Source of the DNA: Candidatus Falkowbacteria bacterium
GTDB lineage: Bacteria > Patescibacteriota > Patescibacteriia > UBA11705 > JABHMO01
Length of the DNA stretch: 64,000 bases
Assembly: GCA_018674305.1 (NCBI GenBank)
Contig: JABHAL010000001.1
Location: 4,635-68,634, forward strand
Reading direction: 5' to 3'
Below the pieces are notes generated by a model. That model was given only the letters and a program-made list of their open reading frames with translations, ran no database searches and had not been told where the DNA came from. Position 1 is the stretch's first letter; every line of letters begins with the position of its first letter. Both the position numbers and the translations under genes were made by a program. Shown here piece by piece: positions 10,907-54,127 of the stretch.

Positions 10907-11210
10907 ATTTAATGTGTATTATGTGTCAGATGTTACTCGTTATGTGTTACGTGTTACGTGCTACGTGCCTAGCTATTCTTTCTCAACCAACGTAAAACTC
11001 TCTTTAAATCCTGCTATTCCATTTGATAAATCAGCATATTCTTCTACGTTTTCGTAAGCTACCCTTATCTCAGCTTCCTTTGTGTTTAATTCTTTTGATC
11101 GTTTGACCAAGTTTTAGTTTTCCTTTTTCTAGTAGGAATTTGTAAAAATCTAATTAAAATTCGCCCCAAAGGGACCACTTCGTGGTAGATTCGGATTATA
11201 TTGTTCAGAT

Positions 11211-11936
11211 TTATTTCATAATTAAAGTTAAAAATCTTTTTTTTAATGATTTCGGGGTATGAATCATAGTCCTGTATAGCCCGCTTCCCAAATCAAACTC
11301 AATAGTTACATTATATCTACCAAACTTATAGTCAAAACAGATTACTTCAACAGATTCAATATCCTCAAGGCCTATTCCTGCTGGCAAATCCTTAATTGAC
11401 GGTGAGGAAGCACGAAATTCCAATTTTTGGCCAATGTAAATTCCCTCATATTTATTTAAGTCCAATTCGCCAGTCGCTTTATCAATAATTCTTGCAACAT
11501 GCTCATTTGTGGTAGAAACCACCTTACCATTCTTTAATTTAACATCTAAATACAAATATGATTCACCAGTTTCAGTAGAAGTATCAGACCTTTCTCCAAC
11601 GTACTCTCCCTGCTTGGCTCCATCACCAAAAAAGTCCACTGCCACTAAGTCACCTACTCTAAGTTCTTTATCCCGTAATGGAATAGTATCATAGTCGATT
11701 TCAATCTCTTTCGTTTCAATAAACTCAACTATCTGTTCTTTCTTAGCAACATAATCACGCAGCACTTGAAGTGCATCTTTATCACCGGCTTCTGCTTTTA
11801 CTTTCAGCTCAGTAAAACCCAAGCCACCTGAAATTTGTTCTAACTCAGACATTAACCTATCAAAATGCTCCTGCTGAACTTCAGTGAAGTTAACTTTTAA
11901 TGCCCTTTCTTGTAACTGTTGTTCTGGGTTAATCAT
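11211..11936 (-). CDS. paralog-family protein B
   Basis: same N-module (>65% identical), different C-domain; its C-region is distantly similar to D. Confidence 0.6.
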   Translation of the reverse strand: MINPEQQLQERALKVNFTEVQQEHFDRLMSELEQISGGLGFTELKVKAEAGDKDALQVLRDYVAKKEQIVEFIETKEIEIDYDTIPLRDKELRVGDLVAVDFFGDGAKQGEYVGERSDTSTETGESYLYLDVKLKNGKVVSTTNEHVARIIDKATGELDLNKYEGIYIGQKLEFRASSPSIKDLPAGIGLEDIESVEVICFDYKFGRYNVTIEFDLGSGLYRTMIHTPKSLKKRFLTLIMK

Positions 11937-12616
11937 ACATCCTCATATAATAGTTTAAACTCGGGTATTGATAAACAAGGGAACCTTTTTTCTCCCTCAT
12001 GATCACGATACAAATACTTCACATTAACTTGATGACTGTTATCAGTCCAACCAAACTCCAAAACCGTTACTTCCTTGGAGCCTAACATTTGCTTATCTTT
12101 ACATTTATATTTTTTCCCTCTTTCTAAACCACTCATAGCATTTCGAGCAATCAATTCTAAACTTGTACCACCTTCAGCTTGAGTTGTTGTGCCAACTAAC
12201 TTGATAACATCACTTTGTAAAACCCTCTCATTAGAACCATACTGGCGCCTTACTAAAATTATATTACCACTTCTGGCTCTTTCAATCCTAAGCACCTCTG
12301 CAACAATTGGGAACGAAGAATGATAACGTACTACCACTTGATCCCCAACATGAATTTCTTCATCATATTTTTCAAAATGCTCAGGGTCCTTTTTCTTTTC
12401 AATAAACTCCACAATCTGCTCTTTCTTCGCAATGTAATCTCGAAGCACCTGCAACGCTTCTTTGTCACCGGTTTCAGCTTTTTCTTTAAGCTCATCAAAA
12501 CCCAAGCCACCTGAAACCACTTCCAATTCAGACATTAACCTATCAAAATGCTCTTGCTGAACTTCGGTAAAGCTAGCTTTGAGTGCGTTTTCAGTTAGTT
12601 GTTCTATACTTTTCAT
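11933..12616 (-). CDS. paralog-family protein C
   Basis: same N-module, unrelated C-domain; 4-nt overlap with B. Confidence 0.6.
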   Translation of the reverse strand: MKSIEQLTENALKASFTEVQQEHFDRLMSELEVVSGGLGFDELKEKAETGDKEALQVLRDYIAKKEQIVEFIEKKKDPEHFEKYDEEIHVGDQVVVRYHSSFPIVAEVLRIERARSGNIILVRRQYGSNERVLQSDVIKLVGTTTQAEGGTSLELIARNAMSGLERGKKYKCKDKQMLGSKEVTVLEFGWTDNSHQVNVKYLYRDHEGEKRFPCLSIPEFKLLYEDV

Positions 12617-12721
12617 GTTTGATATTCTTTATTAAATATTGGATACTGTGTATTAGATATTTTACTCGTTATTGTTCTCGTCCCGCATAGCGGGATCCCG
12701 TTTGCGGGAGATTTAACATAA

Positions 12722-13453
12722 TTAAACTTTCTCATATAATTTTTCTAAATCTTTTGGTGAATATAAAACAGAGGATGCTGAGCTACCATCTTTATACAAA
12801 ATATCCAAACTTATTTTTAATCCATTAAATACATGCCAAAACCCCACAACTAAAATTGAATCAATTTGCTCAATATTAAGTGGTATACCCTGAGCTTCCG
12901 GCAACGGACTTTTTATTTTTAACTTTTGACCCGTAAAAAACCCTCCGTATTTATTCAAATCCAACTTACCACTTTGTTCATTAACAATCTCTGCCACTAT
13001 ATGAGGCCTAACCACGTGGCGCTTATCCCCAAAATCAACAGAATAATATACGGTGCCATCGTCATATCGACTTATTGAAGCAATTACTCCTTTTGATCCA
13101 GCGGGGATACCGGGATTATAATACCGTAAAACAATCACCTCGTCACCACGCTGTAACTCTTTATTTCTAAATGGTATATCATTATAAGAAACAGGTGTTT
13201 CTTTAGTTTCAATAAAAACCACAATTTGCTCTTTTTTGACGATGTAATCCCTCATCACTTGAAGTGCTTCTTTGTCACCAGCCTCAGCCTTCTCTTTTAA
13301 TTCAGCGAAGCCTAAGCCACCTGAGATCACTTCTAATTCCGACATCAGTTTATCAAAATGCGCCTGCTGAACTTCGGTGAAGCTAGCGTGGAGTGCGTTT
13401 TGTTGTAGTTGCTCTAAGTTTTTCATAGAAAAACGTTCTTGTTTAAGGGTCAA
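12722..13453 (-). CDS. paralog-family protein D
   Basis: same N-module after a 10-aa leader; C-domain shares GxLDLNKYxGxxxGQKL with B. Confidence 0.6.
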   Translation of the reverse strand: MTLKQERFSMKNLEQLQQNALHASFTEVQQAHFDKLMSELEVISGGLGFAELKEKAEAGDKEALQVMRDYIVKKEQIVVFIETKETPVSYNDIPFRNKELQRGDEVIVLRYYNPGIPAGSKGVIASISRYDDGTVYYSVDFGDKRHVVRPHIVAEIVNEQSGKLDLNKYGGFFTGQKLKIKSPLPEAQGIPLNIEQIDSILVVGFWHVFNGLKISLDILYKDGSSASSVLYSPKDLEKLYEKV

Positions 13454-20039: not shown

Positions 20040-20300
20040 ATATTAAAGGAGGGATAAGGAGGCTATAGGAGATAACTATGAATTATTAGATTTTAGTTAT
20101 CCTCTTGCCCCTCTATATCTTCTTTATCTTATAATAATTAAAAAATCTGCGTTAAATTCCGCAGACATATCTAAAAAAGGATATATTCCTCGACAGGTAA
20201 TTAAGCCCCTGATAAAATAAGGACACCCGTTGTCTACGGAGATTAATTTAATTGTTATAGATATTATAAAGTAAATTTTAGATTACGTCAACCCCACTAA
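20040..20300 (-). promoter_or_regulatory. rplJ promoter (TTGACG, 17 nt, TATAAT at ~20265-20293) and ~215-nt leader, putative L10 autoregulatory leader
   Basis: consensus promoter on the gene strand; long structured leader typical of rplJL operons; leader ends in a CU-rich tract instead of an SD. Confidence 0.4.
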
Positions 20301-24215: not shown

Positions 24216-24407
24216 CTATCCGCAAGGGCTGTCGGTCGTAACATCGACCCTAAAACCCGCTTTTTGAAGTAGCACTAGGAACAACTGACTTCCTTTATGA
24301 CCGTCCTGGGAAAAGTCCTGCAAAACTAGTCGACCGTCGATAAAGTCAATCACAACGTCATAATGACGTCTTACTTTTGGATCAAGTTTTTTGACGTTTT
24401 TTGACAT
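24216..24407 (-). CDS. small protein (63 aa), paralog of 24382..24606
   Basis: MSKNVKKL...LQKAGFRVDVTTD shares the MSK start and AG(K)(M)GFRVD motif with the neighbouring small ORF; SD-like ggaggtag before the next gene. Confidence 0.35.
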   Translation of the reverse strand: MSKNVKKLDPKVRRHYDVVIDFIDGRLVLQDFSQDGHKGSQLFLVLLQKAGFRVDVTTDSPCG

Positions 24408-24606
24408 GGACTTCCTCCACTTGAGCCTCAGGACGACGACTACCCCCTTCTTCCTCAGTATCAACCCTAAATCCCATTTTACCAGCCAACACCTTAAAAA
24501 GGGCCATCTTGGCTTGACAACGTTTTCCTCCGGGATCACCAGGACAATGAACATCCATGATCAACTTACCATCTTCGACTTTAACGTCTACAATGTCCTT
24601 GCTCAT
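24382..24606 (-). CDS. small protein (74 aa)
   Basis: ATGA start/stop overlap with the upstream 171-aa gene (translational coupling); MSKDIVDVKVEDGKLIMDVHCPGDPGGKRC...AGKMGFRVDTEEE. Confidence 0.45.
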   Translation of the reverse strand: MSKDIVDVKVEDGKLIMDVHCPGDPGGKRCQAKMALFKVLAGKMGFRVDTEEEGGSRRPEAQVEEVHVKKRQKT

Positions 24607-25118
24607 GATACGCTCACCCCCTGAAAACTGATCGACTCAATTTTCCCAGTGCTCGAATTTTGTCGCGTTGACAACTCTGAAACCTCATGACCAGTTGCTC
24701 TCATCAAAGCCAACAGAGTTTCACTCAACATCAGGTTGACAAACTCTTGTTCCAGCAAATCCGCAGCCTTAGCTGTTTCACCCTCGGCGCGATAGAATTG
24801 AACCTGACCATTGTAATTATGGACACCCACGGCCAAGCCGTAAGTCAACCCACTTGGCTTAACAACTCCACGAAATTGCGTGTTGTTATAGCTTCTGATT
24901 CTTTCACCACGATCCATCAGAGCAAGCTCAACGGTTGTGTCTACTTCATCTCGATAACGATTCAAGACTCGATCAAGGCATTCCATGATCAAGTCAGCAG
25001 AATCAAAATCTCTGGCAACTACGGCTAACTGCTCATCAAGAGCAGCTAACTCTTCCATGGCTTCTTCCACAACTTGTGGCACGTCAATACAGACACCTGC
25101 AATCAACACTCTACTCAT
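24603..25118 (-). CDS. hypothetical protein, first gene of the GC-elevated cassette
   Basis: strong SD GAAGGAGGT before the ATG; ~48% GC. Confidence 0.45.
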   Translation of the reverse strand: MSRVLIAGVCIDVPQVVEEAMEELAALDEQLAVVARDFDSADLIMECLDRVLNRYRDEVDTTVELALMDRGERIRSYNNTQFRGVVKPSGLTYGLAVGVHNYNGQVQFYRAEGETAKAADLLEQEFVNLMLSETLLALMRATGHEVSELSTRQNSSTGKIESISFQGVSVS

Positions 25119-37457: not shown

Positions 37458-37901
37458 CTACTGCAACCAACGGTAACCGTTAAATTCGTCACCATCTTCT
37501 TCGTCCTCGGCGACATCACCAAAATATGACATTCGCCGACGTACATCTTGCTTGATTCTTTCTTCCGGAATCCGAGCAAGCACTGCCTCATGAGCTCGCT
37601 CCGACAGGCGCTTCTTGTCATCTTCTGACAAAATCACTTCCGTCTCGACGACCAGGGATTCCATGAATGCCAATCGCAAGGCTTCCGCGACACGTCTGTC
37701 GACATGGTCAAATCTCGACAACCGATCTTCAATCGCCTGAATCGCGAACCTGACCAAGTCCGGTCGCTTGTCCATGAGAGTGTCTCGTACATCCCTCAAT
37801 TGCTGTACAGAACCGATTTTAAACAAATGTTCATACATAGAAGTACAACCACTTCTTCGCCGACTCTCGCAATTCTCACACTTCTTTCGCATTTCGATCA
37901 T
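37458..37901 (-). CDS. hypothetical Cys-motif protein (paralog of 38027..38638)
   Basis: C-x2-C-x7-C N-terminus then RPDL..FAIQAIEDRL; SD GGAGG; ~48% GC. Confidence 0.4.
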   Translation of the reverse strand: MIEMRKKCENCESRRRSGCTSMYEHLFKIGSVQQLRDVRDTLMDKRPDLVRFAIQAIEDRLSRFDHVDRRVAEALRLAFMESLVVETEVILSEDDKKRLSERAHEAVLARIPEERIKQDVRRRMSYFGDVAEDEEDGDEFNGYRWLQ

Positions 37902-38026
37902 CCCTTTCCTCCATCATTATAATAATTTATCAATATAGCACTATAGCACATATCCAGACTATTGTCAACATCAAGTAAAGTTAAACAAAAAAAGCACCGT
38001 ATATTTACGATGCTTAGGTAATTTAA

Positions 38027-38638
38027 CTAATGAACAAACGGTGAACCACCTCCCGAAGAACCAGGACAAGCCCCACCATCAAACATGATCTCAGCGTCAC
38101 AACCTTCTCGTTTTAGGATTCTGAGTAGTTCTTCATTAACTTTTTGACCAAGCCTTCTGATAAAATCAAAAACGGCGGCGTTATACAGAACTTCAATATG
38201 CTCAGCTCTATCAGTCAAACACTTGGCAACTTCCATTCCAAGCTCAGGTCTGTCAAACTCACACAGCAACTCAATAAATGAATGCATATGCTCATAGTCT
38301 TTTTTCATCTCCACGTAGAGCTGTTCTGCATCTGCGCCAGACAAAAAAATCTTTTTCAGACGTGCCTTAACAGCAGAGCACGTTTTCGGGGTTTCAATGA
38401 ACGTTTTCATTTGATACCGTAAACTGTCAAAGGCTGACGCATTACTCCTATCTGCCAAAGCTCTATCTTCAAGCGCCAGAATCGCCACCTTTTGCAAATC
38501 CGTACGCATGAGTAAAATAACCAACAAGGAACTTAGCATATCGTCAGGTTCAGCCATATTTACCACAGCCTGCAGTCTTGCCGTACAGTTTGCTCTGTCA
38601 TTGCAATCTTTGCAAGATTCACTCATTTCTTCCCCCAT
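38027..38638 (-). CDS. hypothetical Cys-motif protein (paralog of 37458..37901)
   Basis: C-x2-C-x6-C then RTDL..VAILALEDRAL; C-terminal CDAE...GGACPG. Confidence 0.4.
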   Translation of the reverse strand: MGEEMSESCKDCNDRANCTARLQAVVNMAEPDDMLSSLLVILLMRTDLQKVAILALEDRALADRSNASAFDSLRYQMKTFIETPKTCSAVKARLKKIFLSGADAEQLYVEMKKDYEHMHSFIELLCEFDRPELGMEVAKCLTDRAEHIEVLYNAAVFDFIRRLGQKVNEELLRILKREGCDAEIMFDGGACPGSSGGGSPFVH

Positions 38639-38748
38639 ATTAGAATGAACAAATTACAGTTTATTATATTCATCTTTTCAAAATTTGTCAATATAATTAA
38701 AAAAACGCCCCCGCATTACGAGGGCACTGAATTCAATAAAAACTTCTC

Positions 38749-42958: not shown

Positions 42959-45900
42959 TTATTTGATCTGCACACTATCAGCCTTGGAATAATTAATTAT
43001 TGATGGACTATTACTAGATTGAATAGTTACCGGCTCAGCTCGGTATTCACCAAGAGCAGCTACTCGAGCATAGTACTTAAAGTAGTTTAGACCTTTACAC
43101 GGTTGCCAATTCTTATTCATACCAAACTTTATCTTCTGATCATTAATTTCGTAAGGATAACGTAGACCACACCAACTCCTAATACCAATTGAGTAAGGTC
43201 TAGTTACGCCTTTCAAACCACTTGGTAAAATATCGGTTATTTGATAATAACCATCGACCGAATCAACAGAAATCTGAGGATATAAACGAACCTCAATTAT
43301 ATCTCCAGCTGAAAAATGATTAACCTGCTGACCATCCACATAATATTGACGGTCAACTGACACATACTGACTAAATGCCTGATCAGTTACTTTTTCTTGA
43401 TAAATACTGGTTACGCCAATATCACCTTGTACGTCCTCAATTTTTAGCCTAGCCAACTGTTCAGGTAATAAGTCTAGCTTGAAGTTTTGACCATTTTCTA
43501 ATTCTTTTTTGTATTTTTTCCCATCAACGTTAACAGTGAAACTAACTGGCCCAACATTCAAGGTTGGCAGACGCTTTGTCAAATAATTAACTTCTTCTAA
43601 ATTGATCAAGACATCTTTAGTCCGGTGATCTGCCAGATAAGACCAAAGCCCTTTATGATATGGGTCATTCAGACCAGCTGCCAACACAGCAGCTAAACTT
43701 GTTGCCTGCAAAACATCATCTTGATCTTTGCCAGTTTTAATTCGGACATAAGAATCTAATTCTTCAGCATTTTCTTTCATTACCTCTAGATAAAGTTTAC
43801 GACCAAGTTCACGATCACCGATCTCAAATGCTGCCAATGCAATATATAATTTTTCTTTAACAGTAACATCTTCAAGTGTCGCAATATTTTGAATTGGCAA
43901 AAGCACAGGCTCTCCCAATCCAGCTAATCCGTAAAGGGAAATAATTACTTCCTCCTGACTAGACTCTTCTGAATTTAGTTTTGTGTAAAAATACTTTGAC
44001 AAAGAAACTTTATCAAATTCAGCCCCTGCAATTGAAGCAACTTTGGCACTCAATTCAAAGTCACTTGAACTATAAGGCAATAAAGTCAAACCACCTTTAC
44101 TCTCCTGATAAGTAGCTGAATTAAAGTTATCTACTTTGTATTCCTTACTGAAATACTGCTTAAATAACTTTTGAGCGGCAACTTTGGAAACTCTCTGGTC
44201 CAACCGATCTCCGTACTGCCAACTTAATCGAAGTAGTCGATGATAAAGCTGTCCAATACTCTCGTCCATAAAAACTAGAGTTGTTCTGTCCGTTGCCGAA
44301 CCAGAAATTTCCACGCCTGACTCATACTTATAATAATCCTGCACTTCTTTGGTCAACAAACTTTCAGCCACAGCAAATTTATTTATCAAGGTATCTTCAA
44401 GTTCACCCTTTTTGGCAGTTGAACTAATTTCATACTGTCCAACGCCAACTTCCCCTAGCGCTACGCTTAAAGCATCAAAAGCTTCCGTTTGTTTAACTAT
44501 TTTATTCAAGTCTAATGCTTCAGAACTAATTTCATAATCAATCACATCACCTGAAGTTAAAGTTTCACCATATGTTCGTAACTGCATAACAGGAGAATCC
44601 CCTTCCAAAAACTTATCTGGTAAAGTTGAGTTTATAAACAAAGGAAGACTAACCGGCAAGGCTGTTACCTCTCTACCAGCGTAAATATCCTTATTAATTG
44701 CCTGCGTAGTAATTCGCCATGAGGTTATATTATCAGGTAATTCAAATCTAACAGTTGCGCGACCAAATAAATCAGTCTTGGCCATTTTGAATAAAGCAGT
44801 ATCCTGAAAGTCTTCTCGCGCTCCACCTTTGTCATTGTGAACAAAGAAACCTTCTGCGAAATATGTGTGATATTTTTCAATATGTAAATTATAAACATCA
44901 ACCATTTGACCGAATCTCTCAATGCTCTCAATTTTAACTCTTTGACCAAATTCATCTAATAAATAATCACCTACTTTAGACTGACCAATCATCTGCCAAC
45001 CATTATTAACAAATACTCTATGCTCAGGAGTAACCCGCAACTTCCCATTAATTAGGTAATAGCCATAAACTGTATGCTCAAAAGTGTTTAACACTTTAGC
45101 TCTAACTAATTTCTTCGATAGCGGATCACTAAAAGTTAAGATCTCATCACCAATCTGAATTTCTTCAATATTCTTGTATGAGCCGTCAGCCATCTTGATC
45201 TGGGTACCAGCCACAAAACAACCGCCCATACCACTCGCATCAGGCGCCAAAGACAATGCTTCATGGGAAGCATAAGTCGTTTTTAGTCCAGCACTTTCCA
45301 ACTGATATACACTGGCCAAAATATCTGCCCAATCTTCGCTCAGCTGAAAAAAGGCTTCATCAACCAAACTTAAATTCAAAGTTGCTGCAACCGGATTTCC
45401 TTTTTGATTAGTAACTTTAACTTCTAATTCCACATCCTCACCTGGTGCATACTCCTCCTTATTTGAAGTAACTTCAACATTTAATTCTTTTTCTGAATAA
45501 TCATATCTGATTGATGTTCCACTGCTAGAACTATACCAATTGTTACTTCCGCTCTGATGATATTTCTCACCATCAAACCAAACTCCACTAACATAAATAT
45601 TTGGAATATAGCTATCCTTGAAGTTAAATTCGTAAACTGGTTCAGTTGACAATGAATAGTCAACTAGACCACGTCGCATCTTGTAGTACAAATAATCTTT
45701 CTTTTCCTGAGAAGATAAAATATCATTATTTTTTGTGAATTCCAAAATCACACTCTCGTCTACCTTAAACTTAACTTTATCACCCTTAATTGCCAACTTA
45801 TAATATTCGTAATTATTGGAACTATATGGATTGCCATAATATGAAGAGCCATACATTTGAGTGGATAAATAATTATTCCCTTGCTCATCAATGGCAATCA

Positions 45901-48505
45901 AGCGAATTTGGTAATAACTCTTTTCTTCAGTTTCAAATTCATAAGTAAACTCACCTGCGGCATCAGTTAAACCTGACATCTCATGAATAACTTTTTCTTC
46001 TTTTTCGTACTTGTATTTTTTATTAACGACCTTATTAATATAATCATACTCTTCACCAATTTCATTCTTGTGCCAAATTATTTGGATAATTTTACCTTTA
46101 ATAGCTGTATTTGGCGCCACTTCTTCCTCATCAACAACACTCCAAAGACTCCCTTTGGCCCTTTTCTCTAAATCGTATTTTTTCACTGTGGCCTTTATTT
46201 TTGCTGTTAATGAATTCTTTTCTTTTGGCGCAACTTCCATCTTGGTATAAACACGAGAGTTATAAGTATAGACATAAGCTGTTTGATTAATCTGTGCCAC
46301 TTCCGGTTGCGTTGAATTCAAATTTAAGTATACTGTTTGCATGTTGGAACAATATGTTTTTTCTAAAGTACACTTAGTCGCGACTGATGGCACCTCGATA
46401 CGCGCCTCACCAGCTAAGTCAACCTCGACTTCTCCTTTCACAGACTTATTACTGGAACTATAATCTAAAACTAAATCTGACACGGGAGTACCTTCAAAAA
46501 ATTCCGCATTAACATCAAAAACTGCAGTTTCTCCGGACCAAATCACTTTATTCTCTGGCTCAACCTTGATTTGATATGCTGGTTTATCGTAAGTCTGAAT
46601 ATTAATGTACTTAGTAGACAAAATCTCATCACCAAGTCTAACGTCCACATAATAATAACCCGGGACTAACTTTTCAAGCTTCAACTCACCAGAATAAACA
46701 AAATCAGGAGACACTTCAAGTTCTTGTTCTGCCAAACTTATTTCTTCATTATAATAATTATAATAACGAGCATAACTATTTTGCCGCAAAGCAACTGTAA
46801 CTTTTTCATCAATCCCCTTTGAATCCTTGGGTTTTACAAATCCCCAAAATTTAATAGTATCGTCAGGTTGAAATAAATTTCGATCAGTGTAAAAATATTT
46901 CCAATACTCTTTTTGCTCTTGTTTAGAAAAACTAACAGGAACAATAGTTACATCACCATCTTTTCGAACCCTCAAGTAGTCAGTCTCATATCGATCTTCC
47001 TCGCTAAAAACAAAAGCTGTGTCGGTATTAAATTTAGTAATTCCTTGACCGTCAGTACTTTTAGTAATTCCACTGGAAATTATTTTAACCTCAGCATTTT
47101 GAACTGACCCTTTATCCACAATACTATTAACCCAAACTAGGCTTTCACTGGTAGACACCATAGAAAATACTGCTAATTCACTAACTGAGAAAAAAGTCTG
47201 TCTTTTCACGTCCTGAACAGTTGATTCAATGACATAAAACCCCGGTTCATATACTTCTGGAAAAACTATAAACTTATTGTAATTAACTTCTCGAACTTCC
47301 AATTCATAGTCAGTTATATGACTAAGGGTATTAGTGTCAACCAAAGAAGACTCGCGATTATAGCTTGCCCAAGCAGGATAATCATATCTACTTTTCAGCG
47401 CCTCTAAATAAGCTGTATCATTGGCCAAGGAATAAACATTTAACTTAATTTTACTATCAAGTAAATTTCGTTCGTAAACTTTGAAGGCTGGCTCTCTAGT
47501 TGGAGAAAATTCTAGATAATCACCGATAATCATGAAGTAAGGTTTATTATTTGAACCTCGCTTATAATTTACCAATGGACTGGTCTCAAATTGCAGGGTG
47601 TAATCTTTTACCATTTTTTCATCTGACTCCGACAAAGGTAACTCCTTGTCTACAATTATTCTGTAAATAGTACCAGGCATTAAATTCTTGGGTACAAAAA
47701 CCCAAGTTCTTTTATGCTTTTCGAAACTTCCATCAACCTTTGGTTCAATTGTAAAATGTTTAGCAAACTCTTCCACATTGTCATGACTGAAAGTAAATTC
47801 AATTCCTGTATCAAGTGGTACCCCAGAACTTTTATCACGAGGCAAAGAGCCGATAATTTTGAATTGGTCTTTAGTTTGAAACGCCCAAGAATAATCTTGT
47901 TCAAATGTTAAACCGCTTTCTGCCATAATAGAGGCCGAAATTACAACACTATAAACAACTCGTGGTTGCAATGGTTCACTTGGAATAATCTTAAACTCAT
48001 GATCATTTACTTTTTTAAAACTAAACTCTAATTCAGGTTTGATCTGAATATTCTCTTCCAATAATTCTGAATCTACGACTTCTTTACTTTTAATAACAAA
48101 AGCAGTGTCCGACTCAACGCCAATACTATCACTAACTGTCGCCTCAACTGTAAAATTATCCTGCGCGTATGCTGGACTAATTATAAGTCGAGAAAATTCA
48201 CTGAAAGGTGAATCTTGGCCAGGCCAGTAATGACTAGCTGTTACAAGTAAAGCAAAAATCACCAGAACAGCTAGAACTGGAGATAAGCGCCTGACAGTAA
48301 AAAGTGAAGAAAATCCTTTTACAAAATTTAGCATATGTTTTTTTTGCTGCCGTTTTTCTAGGATCTTCGATTTTAATGCATAACGAAAATCATCAGAAGC
48401 AGGCTCATTTTTAAATTGTGCTTTTTTTAGCATACTCTCTGCTTCCTGTAACGGATGATTTTCACTTTTATTACGTTTTTTATTGTTATTGTTGTAATTT
48501 TGCAT
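42959..48505 (-). CDS. giant (1848 aa) surface protein: anti-sigma-like cytoplasmic N-terminus, TM, MG/Ig-like repeats, embedded Hint domain, alpha-2-macroglobulin-like TED region (no CGEQ)
   Basis: start 3 nt after the ECF sigma stop; TM LSPVLAVLVIFALLVTA at ~aa 75-95; LSLVDEAFFQL and ITSWRITTQAIN resemble A2M-family motifs; C...HN Hint domain. Confidence 0.6.
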   Translation of the reverse strand: MQNYNNNNKKRNKSENHPLQEAESMLKKAQFKNEPASDDFRYALKSKILEKRQQKKHMLNFVKGFSSLFTVRRLSPVLAVLVIFALLVTASHYWPGQDSPFSEFSRLIISPAYAQDNFTVEATVSDSIGVESDTAFVIKSKEVVDSELLEENIQIKPELEFSFKKVNDHEFKIIPSEPLQPRVVYSVVISASIMAESGLTFEQDYSWAFQTKDQFKIIGSLPRDKSSGVPLDTGIEFTFSHDNVEEFAKHFTIEPKVDGSFEKHKRTWVFVPKNLMPGTIYRIIVDKELPLSESDEKMVKDYTLQFETSPLVNYKRGSNNKPYFMIIGDYLEFSPTREPAFKVYERNLLDSKIKLNVYSLANDTAYLEALKSRYDYPAWASYNRESSLVDTNTLSHITDYELEVREVNYNKFIVFPEVYEPGFYVIESTVQDVKRQTFFSVSELAVFSMVSTSESLVWVNSIVDKGSVQNAEVKIISSGITKSTDGQGITKFNTDTAFVFSEEDRYETDYLRVRKDGDVTIVPVSFSKQEQKEYWKYFYTDRNLFQPDDTIKFWGFVKPKDSKGIDEKVTVALRQNSYARYYNYYNEEISLAEQELEVSPDFVYSGELKLEKLVPGYYYVDVRLGDEILSTKYINIQTYDKPAYQIKVEPENKVIWSGETAVFDVNAEFFEGTPVSDLVLDYSSSNKSVKGEVEVDLAGEARIEVPSVATKCTLEKTYCSNMQTVYLNLNSTQPEVAQINQTAYVYTYNSRVYTKMEVAPKEKNSLTAKIKATVKKYDLEKRAKGSLWSVVDEEEVAPNTAIKGKIIQIIWHKNEIGEEYDYINKVVNKKYKYEKEEKVIHEMSGLTDAAGEFTYEFETEEKSYYQIRLIAIDEQGNNYLSTQMYGSSYYGNPYSSNNYEYYKLAIKGDKVKFKVDESVILEFTKNNDILSSQEKKDYLYYKMRRGLVDYSLSTEPVYEFNFKDSYIPNIYVSGVWFDGEKYHQSGSNNWYSSSSGTSIRYDYSEKELNVEVTSNKEEYAPGEDVELEVKVTNQKGNPVAATLNLSLVDEAFFQLSEDWADILASVYQLESAGLKTTYASHEALSLAPDASGMGGCFVAGTQIKMADGSYKNIEEIQIGDEILTFSDPLSKKLVRAKVLNTFEHTVYGYYLINGKLRVTPEHRVFVNNGWQMIGQSKVGDYLLDEFGQRVKIESIERFGQMVDVYNLHIEKYHTYFAEGFFVHNDKGGAREDFQDTALFKMAKTDLFGRATVRFELPDNITSWRITTQAINKDIYAGREVTALPVSLPLFINSTLPDKFLEGDSPVMQLRTYGETLTSGDVIDYEISSEALDLNKIVKQTEAFDALSVALGEVGVGQYEISSTAKKGELEDTLINKFAVAESLLTKEVQDYYKYESGVEISGSATDRTTLVFMDESIGQLYHRLLRLSWQYGDRLDQRVSKVAAQKLFKQYFSKEYKVDNFNSATYQESKGGLTLLPYSSSDFELSAKVASIAGAEFDKVSLSKYFYTKLNSEESSQEEVIISLYGLAGLGEPVLLPIQNIATLEDVTVKEKLYIALAAFEIGDRELGRKLYLEVMKENAEELDSYVRIKTGKDQDDVLQATSLAAVLAAGLNDPYHKGLWSYLADHRTKDVLINLEEVNYLTKRLPTLNVGPVSFTVNVDGKKYKKELENGQNFKLDLLPEQLARLKIEDVQGDIGVTSIYQEKVTDQAFSQYVSVDRQYYVDGQQVNHFSAGDIIEVRLYPQISVDSVDGYYQITDILPSGLKGVTRPYSIGIRSWCGLRYPYEINDQKIKFGMNKNWQPCKGLNYFKYYARVAALGEYRAEPVTIQSSNSPSIINYSKADSVQIK
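44834..45220 (-). other. Hint / bacterial intein-like (BIL) domain, 129 aa, embedded in the giant protein
   Basis: GMGG|CFVAGTQIKMADG...HIEKYHTYFAEGFFVHN|DKGG: N-terminal Cys, block-A-like start, C-terminal His-Asn; the +1 residue is Asp, so a BIL-type cleavage module rather than a splicing intein; coordinates +/-1 nt. Confidence 0.6.
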
Positions 48506-49100: not shown

Positions 49101-50561
49101 TTAACGTTGGAATGGCCGGCAAGATTTACCTTTCTTAGCCCACATACCAACTCGGAACCTTTGAACAATCCGGTGAGTTCTGGATCCGTAAACCGGTGGC
49201 GGCTTGGTCAGGTCAACCTTGTCCGGTACTTGGTCCATGGAATAGTTAGAAGCAAGGAACTCTTGATGCGCCTGGCGGGCTACCTCCTCCCTTTCTCTCT
49301 CAATCTGCCATTTGGATTTTGGCGGCATTTTGACCACCTTGGCTTTTTTCTTTTTCTCAGGCTTTTTCCCGTCAACTTCTTTTCTGGTTGCTGTCTTCCT
49401 GGCAACATTGTTTTTTCTTTGTTCACGAGATTTTCGTCTTTGTACAGCCATAGCTCGAAAAAACTTCTTAACCAAGTTAGTATACTTGCTCCACTTTTGT
49501 AGAGCACGAGAACGAAAACGAACAGACCATTGCATTTTGCAGTTGATCAAGAAATAGGTAAAACCAAGAGCACCTGCTCCTGAAGCAAAATTTCCTAACC
49601 AGTATAAACCCTCCCCATGAGTGGGCACCTGCACAAAAGACCAAACAGCCAGAGTCATAATCCCGACCCAGACTAAAAAACCAATTGGAGAAAACGGTAG
49701 ATATTGACGTTTTTCATAAGGATATCCGCTCTTACTCCATAGCAGTCGAATTTCTGGATGCACTCTCCAATAAGCTTTCAACCATCCATCTCGACCACGA
49801 AGAACATTCCACACTTCCCGTCGAATAGAGATCGTTCGCCAACCGGCCATAAAAAATGCTGCACAGCCAAAGATAATTAACAAACTGCGAAACAACTTGG
49901 CAATCACTTCTGTGAACAGTAAATACAGCAAATAGCAAGGAACAGCTAAGACCTTAGGTATTGAAAGAATCTTGCGCCGTCTATACTGACACTCATCACG
50001 AGGCGGCTCTGAATGCAACCAATTTACATAGTGCCAAACCAACTTGCTAAACTTAGTTTCTGGCTCTTTAGCAAATAAAGCTTCTGGCACCTCCACTTCA
50101 ACAAGCTTAGAAGCAACTGACCTCCGAGGAAGATCATATAATCGATAAAACTCCAGACCCTGCCAAGAAATGCACTGATAAAAGCGGCCATTACGATCAC
50201 GCTCTAAAAGCCCCTTTATATACTCTTGGTCATCGTCACGAAAAGAAAAAACAAGCACACCAAGACGATGCTTGCCAGCACGCAGAAATTGCAGAAACTG
50301 CAGACCATCAGCAATTCGAAACAGCTGACGACGACCATAATCCCGATCATTCCTCCAATAATCACGATCCACCTTATCGGATTTTTCCAAGCACTGTTCA
50401 ATCAATAAAATATGAGTAGGGTTCTTGGCTAACAATTCTTCACCCAGTCCAATCTGAACTGGAATTGTAGCAGAATCCATCTCCTCTTTACCACCATTGA
50501 ATACTACTTTAAACTCTGGACTCAATGACTCATTTTCCGCAGCGGCTTGTAAATCTGACAT
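49101..50561 (-). CDS. hypothetical membrane protein with basic C-terminal tail
   Basis: 486 aa, 4-5 TM helices, ~45% GC versus ~32% background. Confidence 0.4.
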   Translation of the reverse strand: MSDLQAAAENESLSPEFKVVFNGGKEEMDSATIPVQIGLGEELLAKNPTHILLIEQCLEKSDKVDRDYWRNDRDYGRRQLFRIADGLQFLQFLRAGKHRLGVLVFSFRDDDQEYIKGLLERDRNGRFYQCISWQGLEFYRLYDLPRRSVASKLVEVEVPEALFAKEPETKFSKLVWHYVNWLHSEPPRDECQYRRRKILSIPKVLAVPCYLLYLLFTEVIAKLFRSLLIIFGCAAFFMAGWRTISIRREVWNVLRGRDGWLKAYWRVHPEIRLLWSKSGYPYEKRQYLPFSPIGFLVWVGIMTLAVWSFVQVPTHGEGLYWLGNFASGAGALGFTYFLINCKMQWSVRFRSRALQKWSKYTNLVKKFFRAMAVQRRKSREQRKNNVARKTATRKEVDGKKPEKKKKAKVVKMPPKSKWQIEREREEVARQAHQEFLASNYSMDQVPDKVDLTKPPPVYGSRTHRIVQRFRVGMWAKKGKSCRPFQR

Positions 50562-50720
50562 GCTTAACCTCCATTTAAATAGTCAAAGTTCAATATAACT
50601 AATTATAATATCAACTAATTACAAAAATGTCAACCCCGCCGCTCGCGAACAGCTGGGTCAAGGACTTAAGTAAAATAACCTAAAAGCCCCCTAATGGGGG
50701 CTTCTTCTTAAATTCTTATT

Positions 50721-51067: not shown

Positions 51068-52897
51068 TTATTCTAAAATCGCTTTTATTCTACGAACACC
51101 AGCTGAACTGGATTCTTCTTTTCTAATTTTAAAATGGCCCAAGTCACCAGTTTGTTCAACATGCGGACCGCCACACATTTCAGCACTCACATCACCGATG
51201 GAGAAAACTTTTACCACATCGCCATATTTATCTTCAAACAAACCAACCACACCACGTTCTTTTGCGTCCATATAGGGGATTTCTTCACACACAATCTGCA
51301 AGTCTTGTTTAATCCAATCATTAACTAAATCTTCAACTTGTTTTTTTTGTTCATCTGTCATCTTCTCTTCATGGGTAAAGTCAAAACGTAAACGATCAGG
51401 AGTAATGTTACTTCCCTTTTGTTTAATATGTTCGCCTAAAACTTGTTGTAATGCTGCTTGCAGTAAATGAGTGGCAGTATGCAACTTCGTGGTTGATTCA
51501 CCCTGATCAGCTAGACCACCTTTGAACTTTTGTTCAGCACCCGCGCGGGATAACTCTTGATGTTTTACAAATTCTTTTTCAAATTCTACTTCATCAACTG
51601 TAAGCCCTTGCTCGCCGGCTAATTCTTTAGTCATTTCCAAAGGAAATCCATAAGTAGAAAATAAATCAAATGCTTCTTCCCCAGTAATTTTGCTTTCTTG
51701 CTTTTTTTCTTTTTTACTTTCTTGCAATTTCCCAAGTTGCTTTAATCCATTCTCAAGTGTATGGGCAAACTTTTCTTCTTCCAAAACCAATTGATTGATA
51801 ATGAAATCTTTATTATTTTTCAATTCAGGATAAACATCTGCCATTTGTTTAATCACAACTTCAGCAATTTTAGATGTAAACACTTCTTCAATTCCTAGCT
51901 GTTTACCATAACGAACTGCGCGACGAATTAAACGCCGAAGAATGTAGCCTTGATCAACATTTGAGGGTTGAACTCCCTTTTCATCACCTAAAATGAAAGC
52001 TGCAGCTCGAACATGATCAGCAACAATGCGAAAAGCTGATTTATTGTCCTCATACTTTTTATCACAAAGCTCACTTATTTTTTCAAATAAAACGGCAAAC
52101 TCTTCAATATCAAATACTTCTTTTTCGCCATTCAAAACCGCTACCGTGCGTTCCAATCCCATGCCAGTGTCCACATTTTTCTTTTCTAGTGGAGTTAACT
52201 TACCAGCCGCATCTTTATCGAATTCCATAAACACGTCATTCCAAACTTCAAAAAACTTACCGTTATCTACCAGTTCATCAAAAGTTAATTCAGTGAACCC
52301 TTCTTCTGGTCGGGTGTCATAAAACATTTCTGAACATGGTCCGCAAGGTCCAATATTTAAGCCCCACCAATTATCTTCTGCTGGCAAAGCAAAAATGCGC
52401 ACATTTTCACTTGTCCATTTACCTTCTTTATCTAATTCGGCGGTAATATTAACTTTAGCAAACTGCTCTTGCCAAAGTTTAACGGATTCTTCGTCCAAAG
52501 GGGCTGAATCATCACCTTGAAAAACCGTAATATAAATTCGTTTAGGGTCTAAACCTAACCAATCTTTGGAAGTTAAAAATTCCCAACTCCATTCAATAGC
52601 TTCTTTTTTAAAATAATCACCTAAACTCCAATTGCCCAACATTTCAAAAAATGTTAAATGCCGATTATCTCCAACATCTTCAATATCGCCTGTACGAATA
52701 CATTTTTGTGAATCAACTAAACGAGTTCCACTAGCATGTTTTTCGCCCATTAAAAATGGTACTAATGGGTGCATTCCCGCCATAGTAAATAAAACTGTAG
52801 CATCATTTTCTGGAATTAATGAAGCTGATGGAATAATTTCATGTCCTTTACTTTTGAAAAAATCTAAGTATTTTTGTCTAAGTTCCTTCGTTGTCAT
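51068..52897 (-). CDS. alaS: alanine--tRNA ligase, catalytic + editing domains, no C-Ala domain
   Basis: class II motifs, the AlaRS tRNA-recognition region, and the editing-site H...H / CGG.H motifs (TATHLLQAAL, MCGGPHV). Confidence 0.9.
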   Translation of the reverse strand: MTTKELRQKYLDFFKSKGHEIIPSASLIPENDATVLFTMAGMHPLVPFLMGEKHASGTRLVDSQKCIRTGDIEDVGDNRHLTFFEMLGNWSLGDYFKKEAIEWSWEFLTSKDWLGLDPKRIYITVFQGDDSAPLDEESVKLWQEQFAKVNITAELDKEGKWTSENVRIFALPAEDNWWGLNIGPCGPCSEMFYDTRPEEGFTELTFDELVDNGKFFEVWNDVFMEFDKDAAGKLTPLEKKNVDTGMGLERTVAVLNGEKEVFDIEEFAVLFEKISELCDKKYEDNKSAFRIVADHVRAAAFILGDEKGVQPSNVDQGYILRRLIRRAVRYGKQLGIEEVFTSKIAEVVIKQMADVYPELKNNKDFIINQLVLEEEKFAHTLENGLKQLGKLQESKKEKKQESKITGEEAFDLFSTYGFPLEMTKELAGEQGLTVDEVEFEKEFVKHQELSRAGAEQKFKGGLADQGESTTKLHTATHLLQAALQQVLGEHIKQKGSNITPDRLRFDFTHEEKMTDEQKKQVEDLVNDWIKQDLQIVCEEIPYMDAKERGVVGLFEDKYGDVVKVFSIGDVSAEMCGGPHVEQTGDLGHFKIRKEESSSAGVRRIKAILE

Positions 52898-52963
52898 ATT
52901 AGAAAATTAACTATAATTAGCTATTTAAAATAATACAGCAAATTGCTATTTTTCGCAATGGTA

Positions 52964-52992
52964 TTGACAAATCCATCAATATTTGCTATAGT
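52964..52992 (+). promoter_or_regulatory. consensus sigma70 promoter P1 (TTGACA, 17 nt, TATAGT)
   Basis: ttgacaaatccatcaatatttgctatagt. Confidence 0.65.
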
Positions 52993-52999
52993 AAATGCA

Positions 53000-53126
53000 C
53001 AAAGACGGTGTGTCGCTGACACAAGCCTTAGGGCGTCGGCTTAACACATCTAGAGACTCTAAACCCATTCATGCAGTTAACATCTACGAAGGACCAGTGA
53101 TTCAATATCACTGGCCTTTTCTTTTG
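53000..53126 (+). ncRNA. candidate small RNA 1 (~125 nt, promoter P1 to terminator)
   Basis: bounded by P1 and the intrinsic terminator ccagtgattcaatatcactgg+ccttttctttt; contains GTGTGTC...AAGCCTTAGGGCG; no ORF. Confidence 0.45.
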
Positions 53127-53177
53127 TCTCGACGAGACTACTTTATTGTAATTTTAGTACATATCAACTAACATAGC

Positions 53178-53206
53178 TTGACTAATCTAAAAAAGTATGC
53201 TATAAT
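53178..53206 (+). promoter_or_regulatory. consensus sigma70 promoter P2 (TTGACT, 17 nt, TATAAT)
   Basis: ttgactaatctaaaaaagtatgctataat. Confidence 0.65.
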
Positions 53207-53212
53207 GCAATT

Positions 53213-53566
53213 GAACGTGATGAATAGCGTGTGTCTCCCCACTCTTCAAAAGCCTTAGGGCGAAGTTGTGGGTAAATAAAATTTTGTTATTATTAGTTAG
53301 AAAAAGAAAAGAAAAGAAAAAATCATTCATCACTTAGTTCACTTGTTCGTTCTTTTGCAGTCTTTTTTCATGGTTCTTGGTAGTTTTCTTTTTTGTCTCG
53401 TGGTAGTTCTCAGCTGGTAGACATAGTCTACCGAAAGAAAGCTACTAACAGATTAATTCTGTTAGTAGCAACATTTTCACTGCATATGCAGTGAAAAAAC
53501 TCGCCAACATGAGCCTTAGGGACTTGTTGGTTTAACCCCTTAATAAAATTAAGGGGTTTTTTCTTT
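53213..53566 (+). ncRNA. candidate small/structured RNA 2 (~350 nt, promoter P2 to terminator)
   Basis: terminator aaccccttaataaaattaaggggtt+tttttcttt; internal perfect hairpins (cactgcatatgcagtg; gctactaacag..ctgttagtagc); two copies of the AGCCTTAGGG motif; no ORF >20 codons. Confidence 0.4.
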
Positions 53567-53584
53567 ATTAGAATAAACTAAAAC

Positions 53585-53613
53585 TTGACATACTTAAGTA
53601 TCTGTGATATACT
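53585..53613 (+). promoter_or_regulatory. consensus sigma70 promoter P3 (TTGACA, 17 nt, TATACT)
   Basis: ttgacatacttaagtatctgtgatatact, 64 nt upstream of the 53677 ATG. Confidence 0.6.
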
Positions 53614-53676
53614 GTTAAATCAATAAACAATGATAACTTATCTTTTTAACTACAACATTTGAAGGAGATCAGAAAG

Positions 53677-54006
53677 ATGTCTAGCAGAAAGGAAACTCGG
53701 GTAGAAAAAGAGGCTCGGCTCGAAGCAACGGCTATTGCCAATGCGGCAGCTGGAAAGGTTGCCAACGCAGCCTCCACGGCCATCCTGGCCCAGGAACTGT
53801 TCGACGATGAGTTTGAGCGGGTTTACGAGGAAGCTTACCGCGACATTCTGCAAGATAAGCAGAATAAGGAGTTCTTCAGCGCTTGCGATGAGGATCCGCT
53901 TTTCAATGATGATCTTCAGAAAGAGCACGAGGAACTGTACTTCGCGAACCTCGCAGCTGAACAGGGTATTGCAAGGCCTCCGATCAATAAGGCCATCGAA
54001 GCATAA
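53677..54006 (+). CDS. small acidic protein (109 aa), ~52% GC
   Basis: ATG 7 nt after GAAGGAGA; Ala-rich then acidic (EELFDDEFERVYEEAYRD...); GC ~20 points above background; terminator follows. Confidence 0.5.
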   Translation: MSSRKETRVEKEARLEATAIANAAAGKVANAASTAILAQELFDDEFERVYEEAYRDILQDKQNKEFFSACDEDPLFNDDLQKEHEELYFANLAAEQGIARPPINKAIEA

Positions 54007-54020
54007 AAAAACCTACAACC

Positions 54021-54042
54021 CGGTAATATAGTTACCGGCGAC
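54021..54042 (+). terminator. hairpin terminator after the small acidic gene
   Basis: ccggtaatatagttaccgg perfect stem just after the stop codon; no T-run follows, so weak. Confidence 0.4.
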
Positions 54043-54071
54043 CGTATACTACATTGTGTGCGGTCTTTCTT

Positions 54072-54108
54072 TTAAAATAAAAAACAAAGAACTTGTCAAG
54101 CTCTTTGT
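54072..54108 (-). terminator. rho-independent terminator after mnmA
   Basis: acaaaga...tctttgt stem then tttttatttt on the minus strand. Confidence 0.55.
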
Positions 54109-54127
54109 TGTGATTTATGTAATTTTG

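What the first reader, a model, noticed from the sequence alone, without database searches (positions are those of the whole stretch)
53677..54006. 52%-GC small acidic protein gene behind a perfect promoter in a 32%-GC genome
The GC content is ~20 points above the flanks and above every other gene in the window. It has a consensus promoter (P3), a canonical SD (GAAGGAGA) and a terminator hairpin. It encodes a 109-aa protein with an Ala-rich amphipathic N-terminus and a strongly acidic C-terminus (DDEFERVYEEAYRD...DEDPLFNDDLQKEHEELYFANLAAEQ). The compositional outlier plus an expression-optimised context suggests a recently acquired, highly expressed factor. Candidates include an anti-restriction or DNA-mimic-like acidic protein or a chaperone-like adaptor.
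Basis: partly seen in the sequence, partly recalled or inferred. Interest (0 to 1): 0.55.

Follow-up and report, generated by a model that had tools for sequence, protein, structure and literature searches.

The report
Old foreign orphan gene, acidic protein
This is a real but fairly ordinary gene for a small acidic helical protein of unknown function that a small group of Falkowbacteria (ultra-small CPR bacteria) picked up long ago from a GC-richer source and has kept; it is not a recent arrival.

Summary
ORF 53677-54006 (+) has 51.5% GC and GC3 0.55, against 36.4% for the window. It is the top GC outlier and has the lowest codon-adaptation index of 45 genes. It has a near-consensus extended -10 promoter, an AAGGAG SD and a terminator. 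It is protein-coding: against its 73%-identical orthologue, substitutions fall mainly on third codon positions (6/4/23 in the first 60 codons). No RNA family matches.

Only three orthologues exist among about 15 billion proteins. All lie beside alaS and all have about 52% GC. Relatives with 69-70% AlaRS identity have mnmA and alaS 73-97 nt apart, with no ORF. The gene was therefore inserted in the ancestor of a small clade, so "recently acquired" is wrong.

A neighbouring sub-lineage carries unrelated, interleaved genes with GC3 0.57-0.95, including a different small acidic gene at the same alaS-upstream site. These genes show the same codon-family pattern. A simple relaxation model and 7 GC-to-AT versus 2 AT-to-GC changes fit old horizontal transfer with partial amelioration.

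The function is unknown. The protein is helical, with a conserved Ala-rich N-terminal core and a fast-evolving acidic tail. It matches no anti-restriction, defence, phage, plasmid, Pfam or PDB entry. Interest is low to moderate.

The parts
53585..53613 (+). Sigma-70-type promoter: TTGACA, 17-nt spacer, TG-extended TATACT
   Evidence: 11/12 matches, TG present. (one of 14 sites scoring at least 11/12 in the window). The orthologues also have near-consensus promoters: L088 has TTGACA-17-TATAAT and L001 has TTGACA-17-TGcTATAAT.
53662..53667 (+). Shine-Dalgarno AAGGAG, 9 nt upstream of the ATG
   Evidence: Read directly from the sequence.
53677..54006 (+). CDS of a 109-aa acidic helical protein. 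Residues 1-66 form the conserved core; residues 67-109 form a fast-evolving acidic tail with a D-PL[FW] motif.
   Evidence: Third-position substitution bias against the orthologue. Orthologues P0001 and P0002. AlphaFold2 helices 8-72 and 78-95. pI 4.5.
54020..54038 (+). Conserved 3' hairpin CCGGUAAU-AUA-GUUACCGG
   Evidence: Stems are invariant in all three orthologues and changes occur only in the loop. It is unique in the window. In L088 the stop codon lies inside this hairpin.
54040..54075 (+). Intrinsic terminator: 10-bp stem followed by UCUUUCUUUU
   Evidence: Conserved in three orthologues with only pair-preserving one-sided changes.

Best explanation
The ORF is a real protein-coding gene restricted to one small lineage.

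**Origin.** A GC-rich foreign gene was inserted, on the opposite strand, into the short mnmA-alaS spacer in the common ancestor of a small clade of Candidatus Falkowbacteria (Patescibacteria/CPR). It gained or brought a strong promoter, an SD and a double 3' hairpin. It has since been inherited vertically, with purifying selection on its N-terminal 66 residues. Its high GC is mostly a leftover of the donor's codon usage: no TTA/TTG leucine codons and C-ending Phe/Tyr/Ile codons. AT-biased mutation is slowly eroding this (partial amelioration).

**Function (inference, low confidence).** The product is a 12-kDa all-helical protein. It has an Ala-rich helix packed against an aromatic-rich helix and a rapidly evolving acidic tail. 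It most likely acts by binding another protein, as an oligomeric adaptor or decoy, rather than as an enzyme. The tail probably works through its charge and the short D-PL[F/W] motif.
For: **Coding**
- Against L001, substitutions by codon position are 6/4/23 in the first 60 codons and 8/4/24 in the first 66.
- No Rfam family, tRNA or tmRNA is found.
- The open alternative frames are expected given the codon usage.

**Age and vertical descent**
- Orthologues lie divergently beside alaS in L001 and L088.
- AlaRS identity among the three is 75-76%.
- GC is 0.51-0.55 and GC3 0.55-0.64 in all three.
- Window versus L088, 71% of codons with the same amino acid differ.

**Insertion**
- L146, L147 and L148 (AlaRS 69-70% identical) keep the order pilins, S11 peptidase, mnmA, alaS, mutS, mutL.
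- Their mnmA-alaS spacer is only 73-97 nt, and no homologue is present.
- None is found near alaS in 80 more distant genomes.

**Foreign GC-rich pool**
- L144, L149 and L150 carry interleaved genes with GC3 0.57-0.95 among housekeeping genes with GC3 0.24-0.46 (most 0.24-0.37).
- These include a different small acidic gene at the same alaS-upstream site, with GC3 0.80-0.93.
- Their pooled codon usage shows the same heterogeneity as the ORF. Leu CTN, Phe TTC and Tyr TAC are strongly favoured; Asp GAC and Glu GAG only weakly.

**Amelioration**
- A simple relaxation model needs an ancestral GC3 of 0.76-0.93 to reach 0.58 today.
- Polarised synonymous changes are 7 GC-to-AT versus 2 AT-to-GC.
- Horizontal transfer into Patescibacteria is documented, at up to 13% of genome length (PMC12455944).

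**Protein**
- AlphaFold2 predicts long helices, with pLDDT above 90 for residues 11-60.
- The conserved core and variable acidic tail are seen in the alignment.
- The remaining 47 aligned codons show 13/11/13 substitutions, obtained by subtraction from the figures. That indicates no third-position bias.
Against: - No donor or outside homologue exists among about 15 billion proteins, so transfer is inferred from composition and synteny only.
- All three lineages sit at a similar GC3. No TTR leucine codon has appeared in 25 Leu codons. Phe/Tyr differ from Asp/Asn (p = 0.003). Together these could instead mean selection on synonymous sites.
- The polarised counts are small, and the outgroup is saturated.
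- The functional statement rests only on composition, predicted helices and the conservation pattern. The AlphaFold2 models have low pTM (0.33 and 0.42) and were built from only 2-3 sequences.
Confidence: 0.6

Rival explanations
1. The GC-rich codon usage is actively maintained by gene-specific selection on synonymous sites. Possible reasons are a very stable, RNase-resistant mRNA, or translation made independent of the tRNAs that read TTR and A/U-ending codons. The origin of the gene would then be irrelevant.
For: - GC3 is 0.55-0.64 in three lineages although synonymous sites are saturated between the window and L088.
- TTR codons are 0 of 25 Leu codons, against 70% in the genome.
- Codon families are heterogeneous, p = 0.003.
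- Folding energy is the lowest of the compared 330-nt segments, -109 kcal/mol against -49 to -107.
- The 3' double hairpin is almost invariant.
Against: - The same codon-family pattern occurs in clearly foreign GC-rich genes of sister lineages.
- CDS folding z-scores of -1.4 to -2.4 lie within the control spread of -0.62 +/- 1.32.
- Between the window and L088, third positions are at chance identity, so no RNA-level constraint acts inside the CDS.
- Ribosomal-protein genes use the opposite codons.
- GC-to-AT changes are in excess.
Confidence: 0.2
2. The protein is a DNA-mimic or anti-restriction protein (like Ocr or ArdA) or some other anti-defence factor.
For: It is small, has pI 4.2-4.5, is helical, is rich in Asp, Glu and aromatic residues, and has a strong promoter.
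Against: - No PADLOC or meaningful PHROGs hit. The best is an unknown-function phrog at E = 0.02, matched by one of three members.
- No tblastn match in 50,697 phage or 72,556 plasmid records.
- No match in viral contigs.
- It is a single chromosomal gene between housekeeping genes, with no mobility genes, and is inherited vertically.
Confidence: 0.05
3. The GC-rich stretch is really a structured non-coding RNA, or a dual-function RNA, and the ORF is incidental.
For: - GC-rich islands in AT-rich genomes are often RNA genes.
- The whole-transcript fold has a z-score of -4.1.
- Two other reading frames are also open in all three orthologues.
Against: - The third-position substitution bias and the conserved protein N-terminus.
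- No Rfam or ARAGORN hit.
- The open alternative frames are expected from the codon usage, P = 0.3-0.6.
- The CDS alone is not unusually structured. The low z-score comes mainly from the 3' hairpins.
Confidence: 0.03
4. It is a hydrophilin or LEA/YtxH-like stress protectant: an abundant hydrophilic helical protein that protects macromolecules during desiccation or cold.
For: - GRAVY is -0.62 and an Ala-rich amphipathic helix is predicted.
- From memory, the N-terminal SRKETR/GKSETR resembles the 'SGKETR' motif of YtxH proteins. This is a lead, not a test.
Against: - Glycine is 1.8%; hydrophilins need more than 6%.
- No Pfam hit to YtxH or LEA families even at E <= 10.
- There are no 11-mer repeats.
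- The strict conservation of residues 10-33 on all helix faces suggests a specific interface rather than a bulk effect.
Confidence: 0.07

Closest known systems
Horizontally acquired ORFan genes and genomic islets undergoing amelioration (Lawrence and Ochman model). HGT in Patescibacteria is described in PMC12455944.
   Same: It has atypical composition and codon usage. It is absent from the same locus in the next relatives. It has no homologues outside a narrow clade. It has the lowest CAI in the region. GC-to-AT changes are in excess.
   Different: It is GC-richer than its host genome, whereas most ORFans are AT-richer. It is a single gene with no mobility genes or tRNA nearby. It is old enough to be shared by three species, and its protein is under clear purifying selection.
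DNA-mimic anti-restriction proteins (T7 Ocr, ArdA)
   Same: Small, strongly acidic, helical, and behind a strong promoter.
   Different: It has no sequence or fold match. It is not on a phage, plasmid or transposon. It is vertically inherited. Its most conserved part is the neutral Ala-rich N-terminus, not the acidic surface.
Small acidic coiled-coil adaptors such as ZapB (named from memory as an analogy only)
   Same: About 80-110 aa, acidic, with predicted long helices and probably oligomeric.
   Different: No homology. Partners and cellular role are unknown.
The GC-rich small acidic lipoprotein-like genes found divergently beside alaS in sister Falkowbacteria (L144 3853-4356, L149 2901-3341, L150 1761-2210)
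   Same: They occupy the same position and orientation relative to alaS. They are small (146-167 aa), acidic (pI about 5), have no Pfam domain, and have GC far above their neighbours.
   Different: They are an unrelated sequence family. They have a signal peptide with a lipobox-like Cys and CCW motifs. Their GC3 of 0.80-0.93 is much higher, which suggests a more recent arrival.

Membership tests
Horizontally acquired gene (islet) | Composition and codon usage deviate from the host genome | tested here: met
   GC is 0.515 against 0.364. GC3 is 0.55 against 0.25-0.33. CAI is the lowest of 45 genes. TTR codons are 0 of 8 Leu codons, against 70% in the genome.
Horizontally acquired gene (islet) | Absent from the orthologous locus in related genomes | tested here: met
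   mnmA and alaS are 73-97 nt apart with no ORF in L146, L147 and L148.
Horizontally acquired gene (islet) | An identifiable donor or homologues in another lineage | tested here: not met
   Only three family members exist among about 15 billion proteins. None is found in GTDB genomes, JGI metagenomes or viral contigs.
Horizontally acquired gene (islet) | Recent arrival: present in one genome only, or flanked by mobility genes or a tRNA | tested here: not met
   It is shared by three species with AlaRS 75-76% identical. No integrase, transposase or tRNA lies nearby.
Highly expressed gene class | Codon usage like the ribosomal-protein genes | tested here: not met
   CAI is 0.359, the lowest in the window. 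Ribosomal-protein genes have GC3 of 0.19-0.23.
Highly expressed gene class | Strong promoter, SD and efficient terminator | tested here: met
   The signals are conserved in the orthologues. Actual expression was not measured.
Anti-restriction / DNA-mimic proteins (Ocr, ArdA and similar) | Sequence or fold similarity to a known family | tested here: not met
   PADLOC gave 0 hits. PHROGs gave only unknown-function families at E >= 0.02. Pfam gave 0 hits. PDB hits by sequence had E >= 0.46. Foldseek against PDB gave none at E <= 0.001.
Anti-restriction / DNA-mimic proteins (Ocr, ArdA and similar) | Carried by a phage, plasmid or other mobile element | tested here: not met
   No match in phage, plasmid or viral collections. 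The gene is chromosomal, between alaS and mnmA.
Anti-restriction / DNA-mimic proteins (Ocr, ArdA and similar) | A surface charge pattern that mimics B-DNA, and binding to restriction enzymes | not testable with these tools
   Only the overall acidity is known (pI 4.5).
Structured non-coding RNA | A covariance-model match or covarying helices within the GC-rich body | tested here: not met
   No Rfam hit. The CDS fold z-score lies within the control range. Substitutions follow codon periodicity.
Hydrophilin / LEA-like proteins | Glycine above 6% together with high hydrophilicity | tested here: not met
   Glycine is 1.8% and GRAVY is -0.62. No Pfam LEA or YtxH hit.

The most novel reading that the evidence does not exclude
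The site upstream of alaS may be a preferred landing and expression site in Falkowbacteria. Different lineages would have independently installed unrelated small, acidic, GC-rich foreign genes there behind strong promoters. This ORF is one example; the lipoprotein-like family with GC3 0.8-0.9 in L144, L149 and L150 is another. Their GC-rich codon usage might be kept for a reason linked to the symbiont-host lifestyle, for example genes taken from, or acting on, a GC-rich host.
Probability: 0.1. Interest if true: 0.6.

Novelty: new member of a known kind. Interest (0 to 1): 0.3.

Why it matters
It adds one well-documented case of an old, partly ameliorated foreign orphan gene in an ultra-small CPR genome. 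The insertion point, approximate age and purifying selection are all established. It also shows that related Falkowbacteria genomes are fine-scale mosaics of AT-rich core genes and very GC-rich accessory genes.

The protein family (three members, no known relatives) is a candidate for lineage-specific biology of these uncultivated episymbionts. Nothing here points to a new mechanism.

Tried and rejected
- **Hidden RNA gene (tmRNA, RNase P, 6S, SRP).** Rejected by Rfam and ARAGORN and by codon periodicity.
- **Overlapping or antisense gene** suggested by open frames +1 and -0 in all three orthologues. Rejected: the open frames are expected from the codon usage, and substitutions hit the positions that would be non-synonymous in those frames.
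- **Exceptional mRNA structure in the CDS.** Rejected: z-scores of -1.4 to -2.4 against controls of -0.62 +/- 1.32.
- **Link with the upstream small RNAs.** Rejected as an obligatory link. They are absent from the L088 spacer, and in L001 another gene separates them from the ORF.
- **A split-off C-terminal piece of AlaRS.** No NCBIfam or Pfam similarity.
- **Homologue hunts that found nothing.** GTDB genomes, JGI metagenomes and viral contigs by protein pattern. The 3' hairpin pattern in metagenomes returned only L088 again. Phages and plasmids. ORFs near alaS in 80 distant genomes.
- **Fold searches.** No significant hits. Encapsulated-ferritin-like two-helix proteins appeared only at E > 4.
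- **Within-species polymorphism to polarise mutations.** All copies are identical.
- **Literature search for accessions and samples.** Nothing useful.
- **Viral-contig scan for the small-RNA loop motif.** Only single hits, which I judged to be at chance level.

Full report
**1. Observation**

The ORF at 53677-54006 (+) encodes 109 aa. Its GC is 0.515, with 0.64/0.35/0.55 by codon position. The window as a whole is 0.364, the flanks are 0.33-0.38, and neighbouring genes have GC3 of 0.25-0.33.

Among 63 ORFs of at least 80 aa it has the highest GC; the next is 0.484. Against the window's ribosomal-protein genes it has the lowest codon-adaptation index, 0.359. It is the only gene with no TTA/TTG leucine codons and 89% C-ending Phe/Tyr codons. 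Amino-acid composition alone would give 0.41 GC with host codon usage, so most of the excess comes from synonymous codon choice.

The promoter is TTGACA-17-TATACT with a TG extension. It scores 11/12 and is one of 14 such sites in 64 kb. The SD AAGGAG lies 9 nt before the ATG. The 3' end has two hairpins, the second being an intrinsic terminator. The protein has pI 4.5, a neutral Ala-rich first 40 residues and an acidic remainder.

**2. Protein gene or RNA?**

A GC-rich island behind a strong promoter in an AT-rich genome could be a structured RNA, so I tested that first.
- Rfam, at both gathering and permissive thresholds, and ARAGORN found nothing.
- An orthologue with 73% identity exists (P0001). 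Against it, substitutions by codon position are 6/4/23 in the first 60 codons and 8/4/24 in the first 66. This is the signature of a translated, constrained ORF.
- Frames +1 and antisense -0 are also open in all three orthologues. Simulations show this is expected from the codon usage, P = 0.3-0.6.
- CDS folding z-scores of -1.4 to -2.4 lie within the spread of other genes, -0.62 +/- 1.32. The whole-transcript z of -4.1 comes mainly from the 3' hairpins.

I conclude that it is a protein-coding gene.

**3. Distribution**

Searches of 5.8 billion cluster representatives, and of every 50%-identity representative of about 15 billion proteins, found only two relatives. These are P0001 (109 aa) and P0002 (143 aa, in which only the first 76 residues are alignable). 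Nothing turned up in GTDB species genomes, JGI metagenomes, viral contigs, phage genomes or plasmids. No Pfam, NCBIfam, PADLOC or PDB similarity was found, and PHROGs gave only unknown-function families at E >= 0.02.

The identical AlaRS is named Candidatus Falkowbacteria by NCBI.

All three orthologues are transcribed divergently from alaS. AlaRS identity among the three genomes is 75-76%. All three orthologues have about 52% GC, with GC3 of 0.55-0.64, and near-consensus promoters.

The 3' double hairpin is almost invariant in all three, with changes only in loops or preserving pairs. This holds even though the protein C-termini cannot be aligned and, in L088, the stop codon lies inside the first hairpin.

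**4. Gain or loss, recent or old?**

Relatives with 69-70% AlaRS identity (L146, L147, L148) keep the same surrounding gene order: pilins, S11 peptidase, mnmA, alaS, mutS, mutL. All these genes are co-oriented. In those genomes mnmA and alaS are only 73-97 nt apart, with no ORF and no similarity to the family. None of 80 more distant genomes has a homologue near alaS.

The block between alaS and mnmA (52898-54127) is therefore an insertion in the ancestor of the {window, L001, L088} group.

It is not recent. Between the window and L088, 71% of codons with the same amino acid differ, and 10 of 12 four-fold sites differ. For alaS the figures are 35% and 48%.

**5. Why is it still GC-rich?**

Two readings were compared.

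(a) Selection keeps it GC-rich.
- For: all three lineages sit at a similar GC3; there are no TTR codons among 25 Leu codons; and Phe/Tyr are far more C-biased than Asp/Asn (p = 0.003).

(b) It is an old transfer from a GC-rich source with incomplete amelioration.
- For: a neighbouring sub-lineage (L144/L145, L149, L150) has AT-rich core genes with GC3 of 0.24-0.46 (most 0.24-0.37) interleaved with accessory genes at GC3 0.57-0.95. These include an unrelated small acidic lipoprotein-like gene at the very same alaS-upstream position, with GC3 0.80-0.93.
- The pooled codon usage of those genes shows the same family-specific pattern: Leu CTN 88%, Phe TTC 88%, Tyr TAC 93%, but Asp GAC 64% and Glu GAG 60%. 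The heterogeneity therefore need not reflect selection in this gene.
- A simple F81-type relaxation model calibrated on alaS four-fold sites needs an ancestral GC3 of 0.76-0.93 to give 0.58 today, which is what those islands have.
- Synonymous changes polarised with L088 are 7 GC-to-AT against 2 AT-to-GC. The numbers are small and the outgroup is saturated.

I favour (b) at about 0.6 and keep (a) at about 0.2. HGT into Patescibacteria is well documented (PMC12455944).

**6. What the protein may do**

AlphaFold2 predicts a long helix at 8-72 (pLDDT above 90 for residues 11-60) and a second helix at 78-95. For the 143-aa orthologue it predicts three helices, with a break at residues 31-36. Neither model has a significant structural neighbour.

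Residues 10-33 (EKEARLEATxIANxAAxKxANxAS) and the aromatic-rich stretch 42-62 are nearly invariant. The last 47 aligned codons change equally at all three codon positions, 13/11/13, obtained by subtraction from the figures. They nevertheless stay acidic and keep a D-PL[F/W] motif.

By inference only, this looks like a small helical, probably oligomeric, protein-binding factor with a charge-driven tail. It is chromosomal, vertically inherited and unrelated to any known anti-restriction or defence protein. The DNA-mimic idea therefore has no support beyond acidity.

**7. Verdict**

This is a real, old, horizontally acquired orphan gene under purifying selection. It is an ordinary kind of object in CPR genomes, with a well-resolved history but an unknown function. 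Interest is low to moderate.

The most notable by-products are two findings. First, there are two conserved unannotated small-RNA genes just upstream. Second, GC-rich and AT-rich genes form a fine-scale mosaic in sister genomes, with two unrelated small acidic GC-rich genes at the same alaS-upstream site.

Noticed in passing
window 52964-53565 (+): Two conserved non-coding transcription units lie behind strong promoters (52964-52992 and 53178-53206). One is an RNA of about 120 nt and the other about 350 nt. Together they carry three hairpins with the same apical sequence AAGCCUUAGGG(CG), at 53024, 53251 and 53512, plus a long-range stem, a 12-bp hairpin and terminators. The region is 81% identical to L001, more than alaS third positions, with fully compensatory hairpin replacements. 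No Rfam family matches, and the units are absent from the L088 spacer. This is probably a new small-RNA family.
   Followed up: partly
L144 946-4356 and 8055-10503; L149 664-3341; L150 534-2210: Sister Falkowbacteria contigs are fine-scale mosaics. Genes with GC3 of 0.57-0.95 (NMT1-like, VWA, HD-domain, orphans) are interleaved with housekeeping genes of GC3 0.24-0.46 (most 0.24-0.37). An unrelated small acidic lipoprotein-like gene with GC3 0.80-0.93 sits divergently beside alaS, at the same site as the ORF studied here.
   Followed up: partly
window 37458-38691 (-), 24216-25118 (-), 49101-50633 (-): Other ORFs with raised GC (0.43-0.48) have no Pfam domain. Several lie behind the strongest promoters in the window: 38691 (12/12), 37968 and 50633 (11/12 with TG). 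They may be older foreign genes of the same kind.
   Followed up: partly
window 51068-52897 (-) versus L001 968-2737: The AlaRS of the window and of L001 looks mosaic. By eye from the alignment, the C-terminal half (about residues 300-608) is roughly 90% or more identical, while the N-terminal half is much more divergent and has indels. This suggests recombination inside alaS.
   Followed up: no
window 9467-13453 (-): Four tandem paralogous ORFs share an N-terminus of the form M(I)NPE(K/Q)QLQE(N/R)ALKxxFTExQQ(Q/E)HF.
   Followed up: no
window 42959-48505 (-): An 1848-aa alpha-2-macroglobulin-like protein (A2M, bMG3) also has PT-HINT, Vint and intein-type hits, some of them weak or faint.
   Followed up: no
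L001 3657-4040 (+): In L001 a 127-aa predicted membrane protein gene with its own consensus promoter has been inserted directly upstream of the orthologue, and its 3' end overlaps the orthologue's start codon. It has no counterpart in the window.
   Followed up: partly
window 20131-20257 (-): This is the only Rfam match above threshold in the window: the ribosomal protein L10 leader, behind a TTGACG-17-TATAAT promoter at 20291-20263.
   Followed up: no
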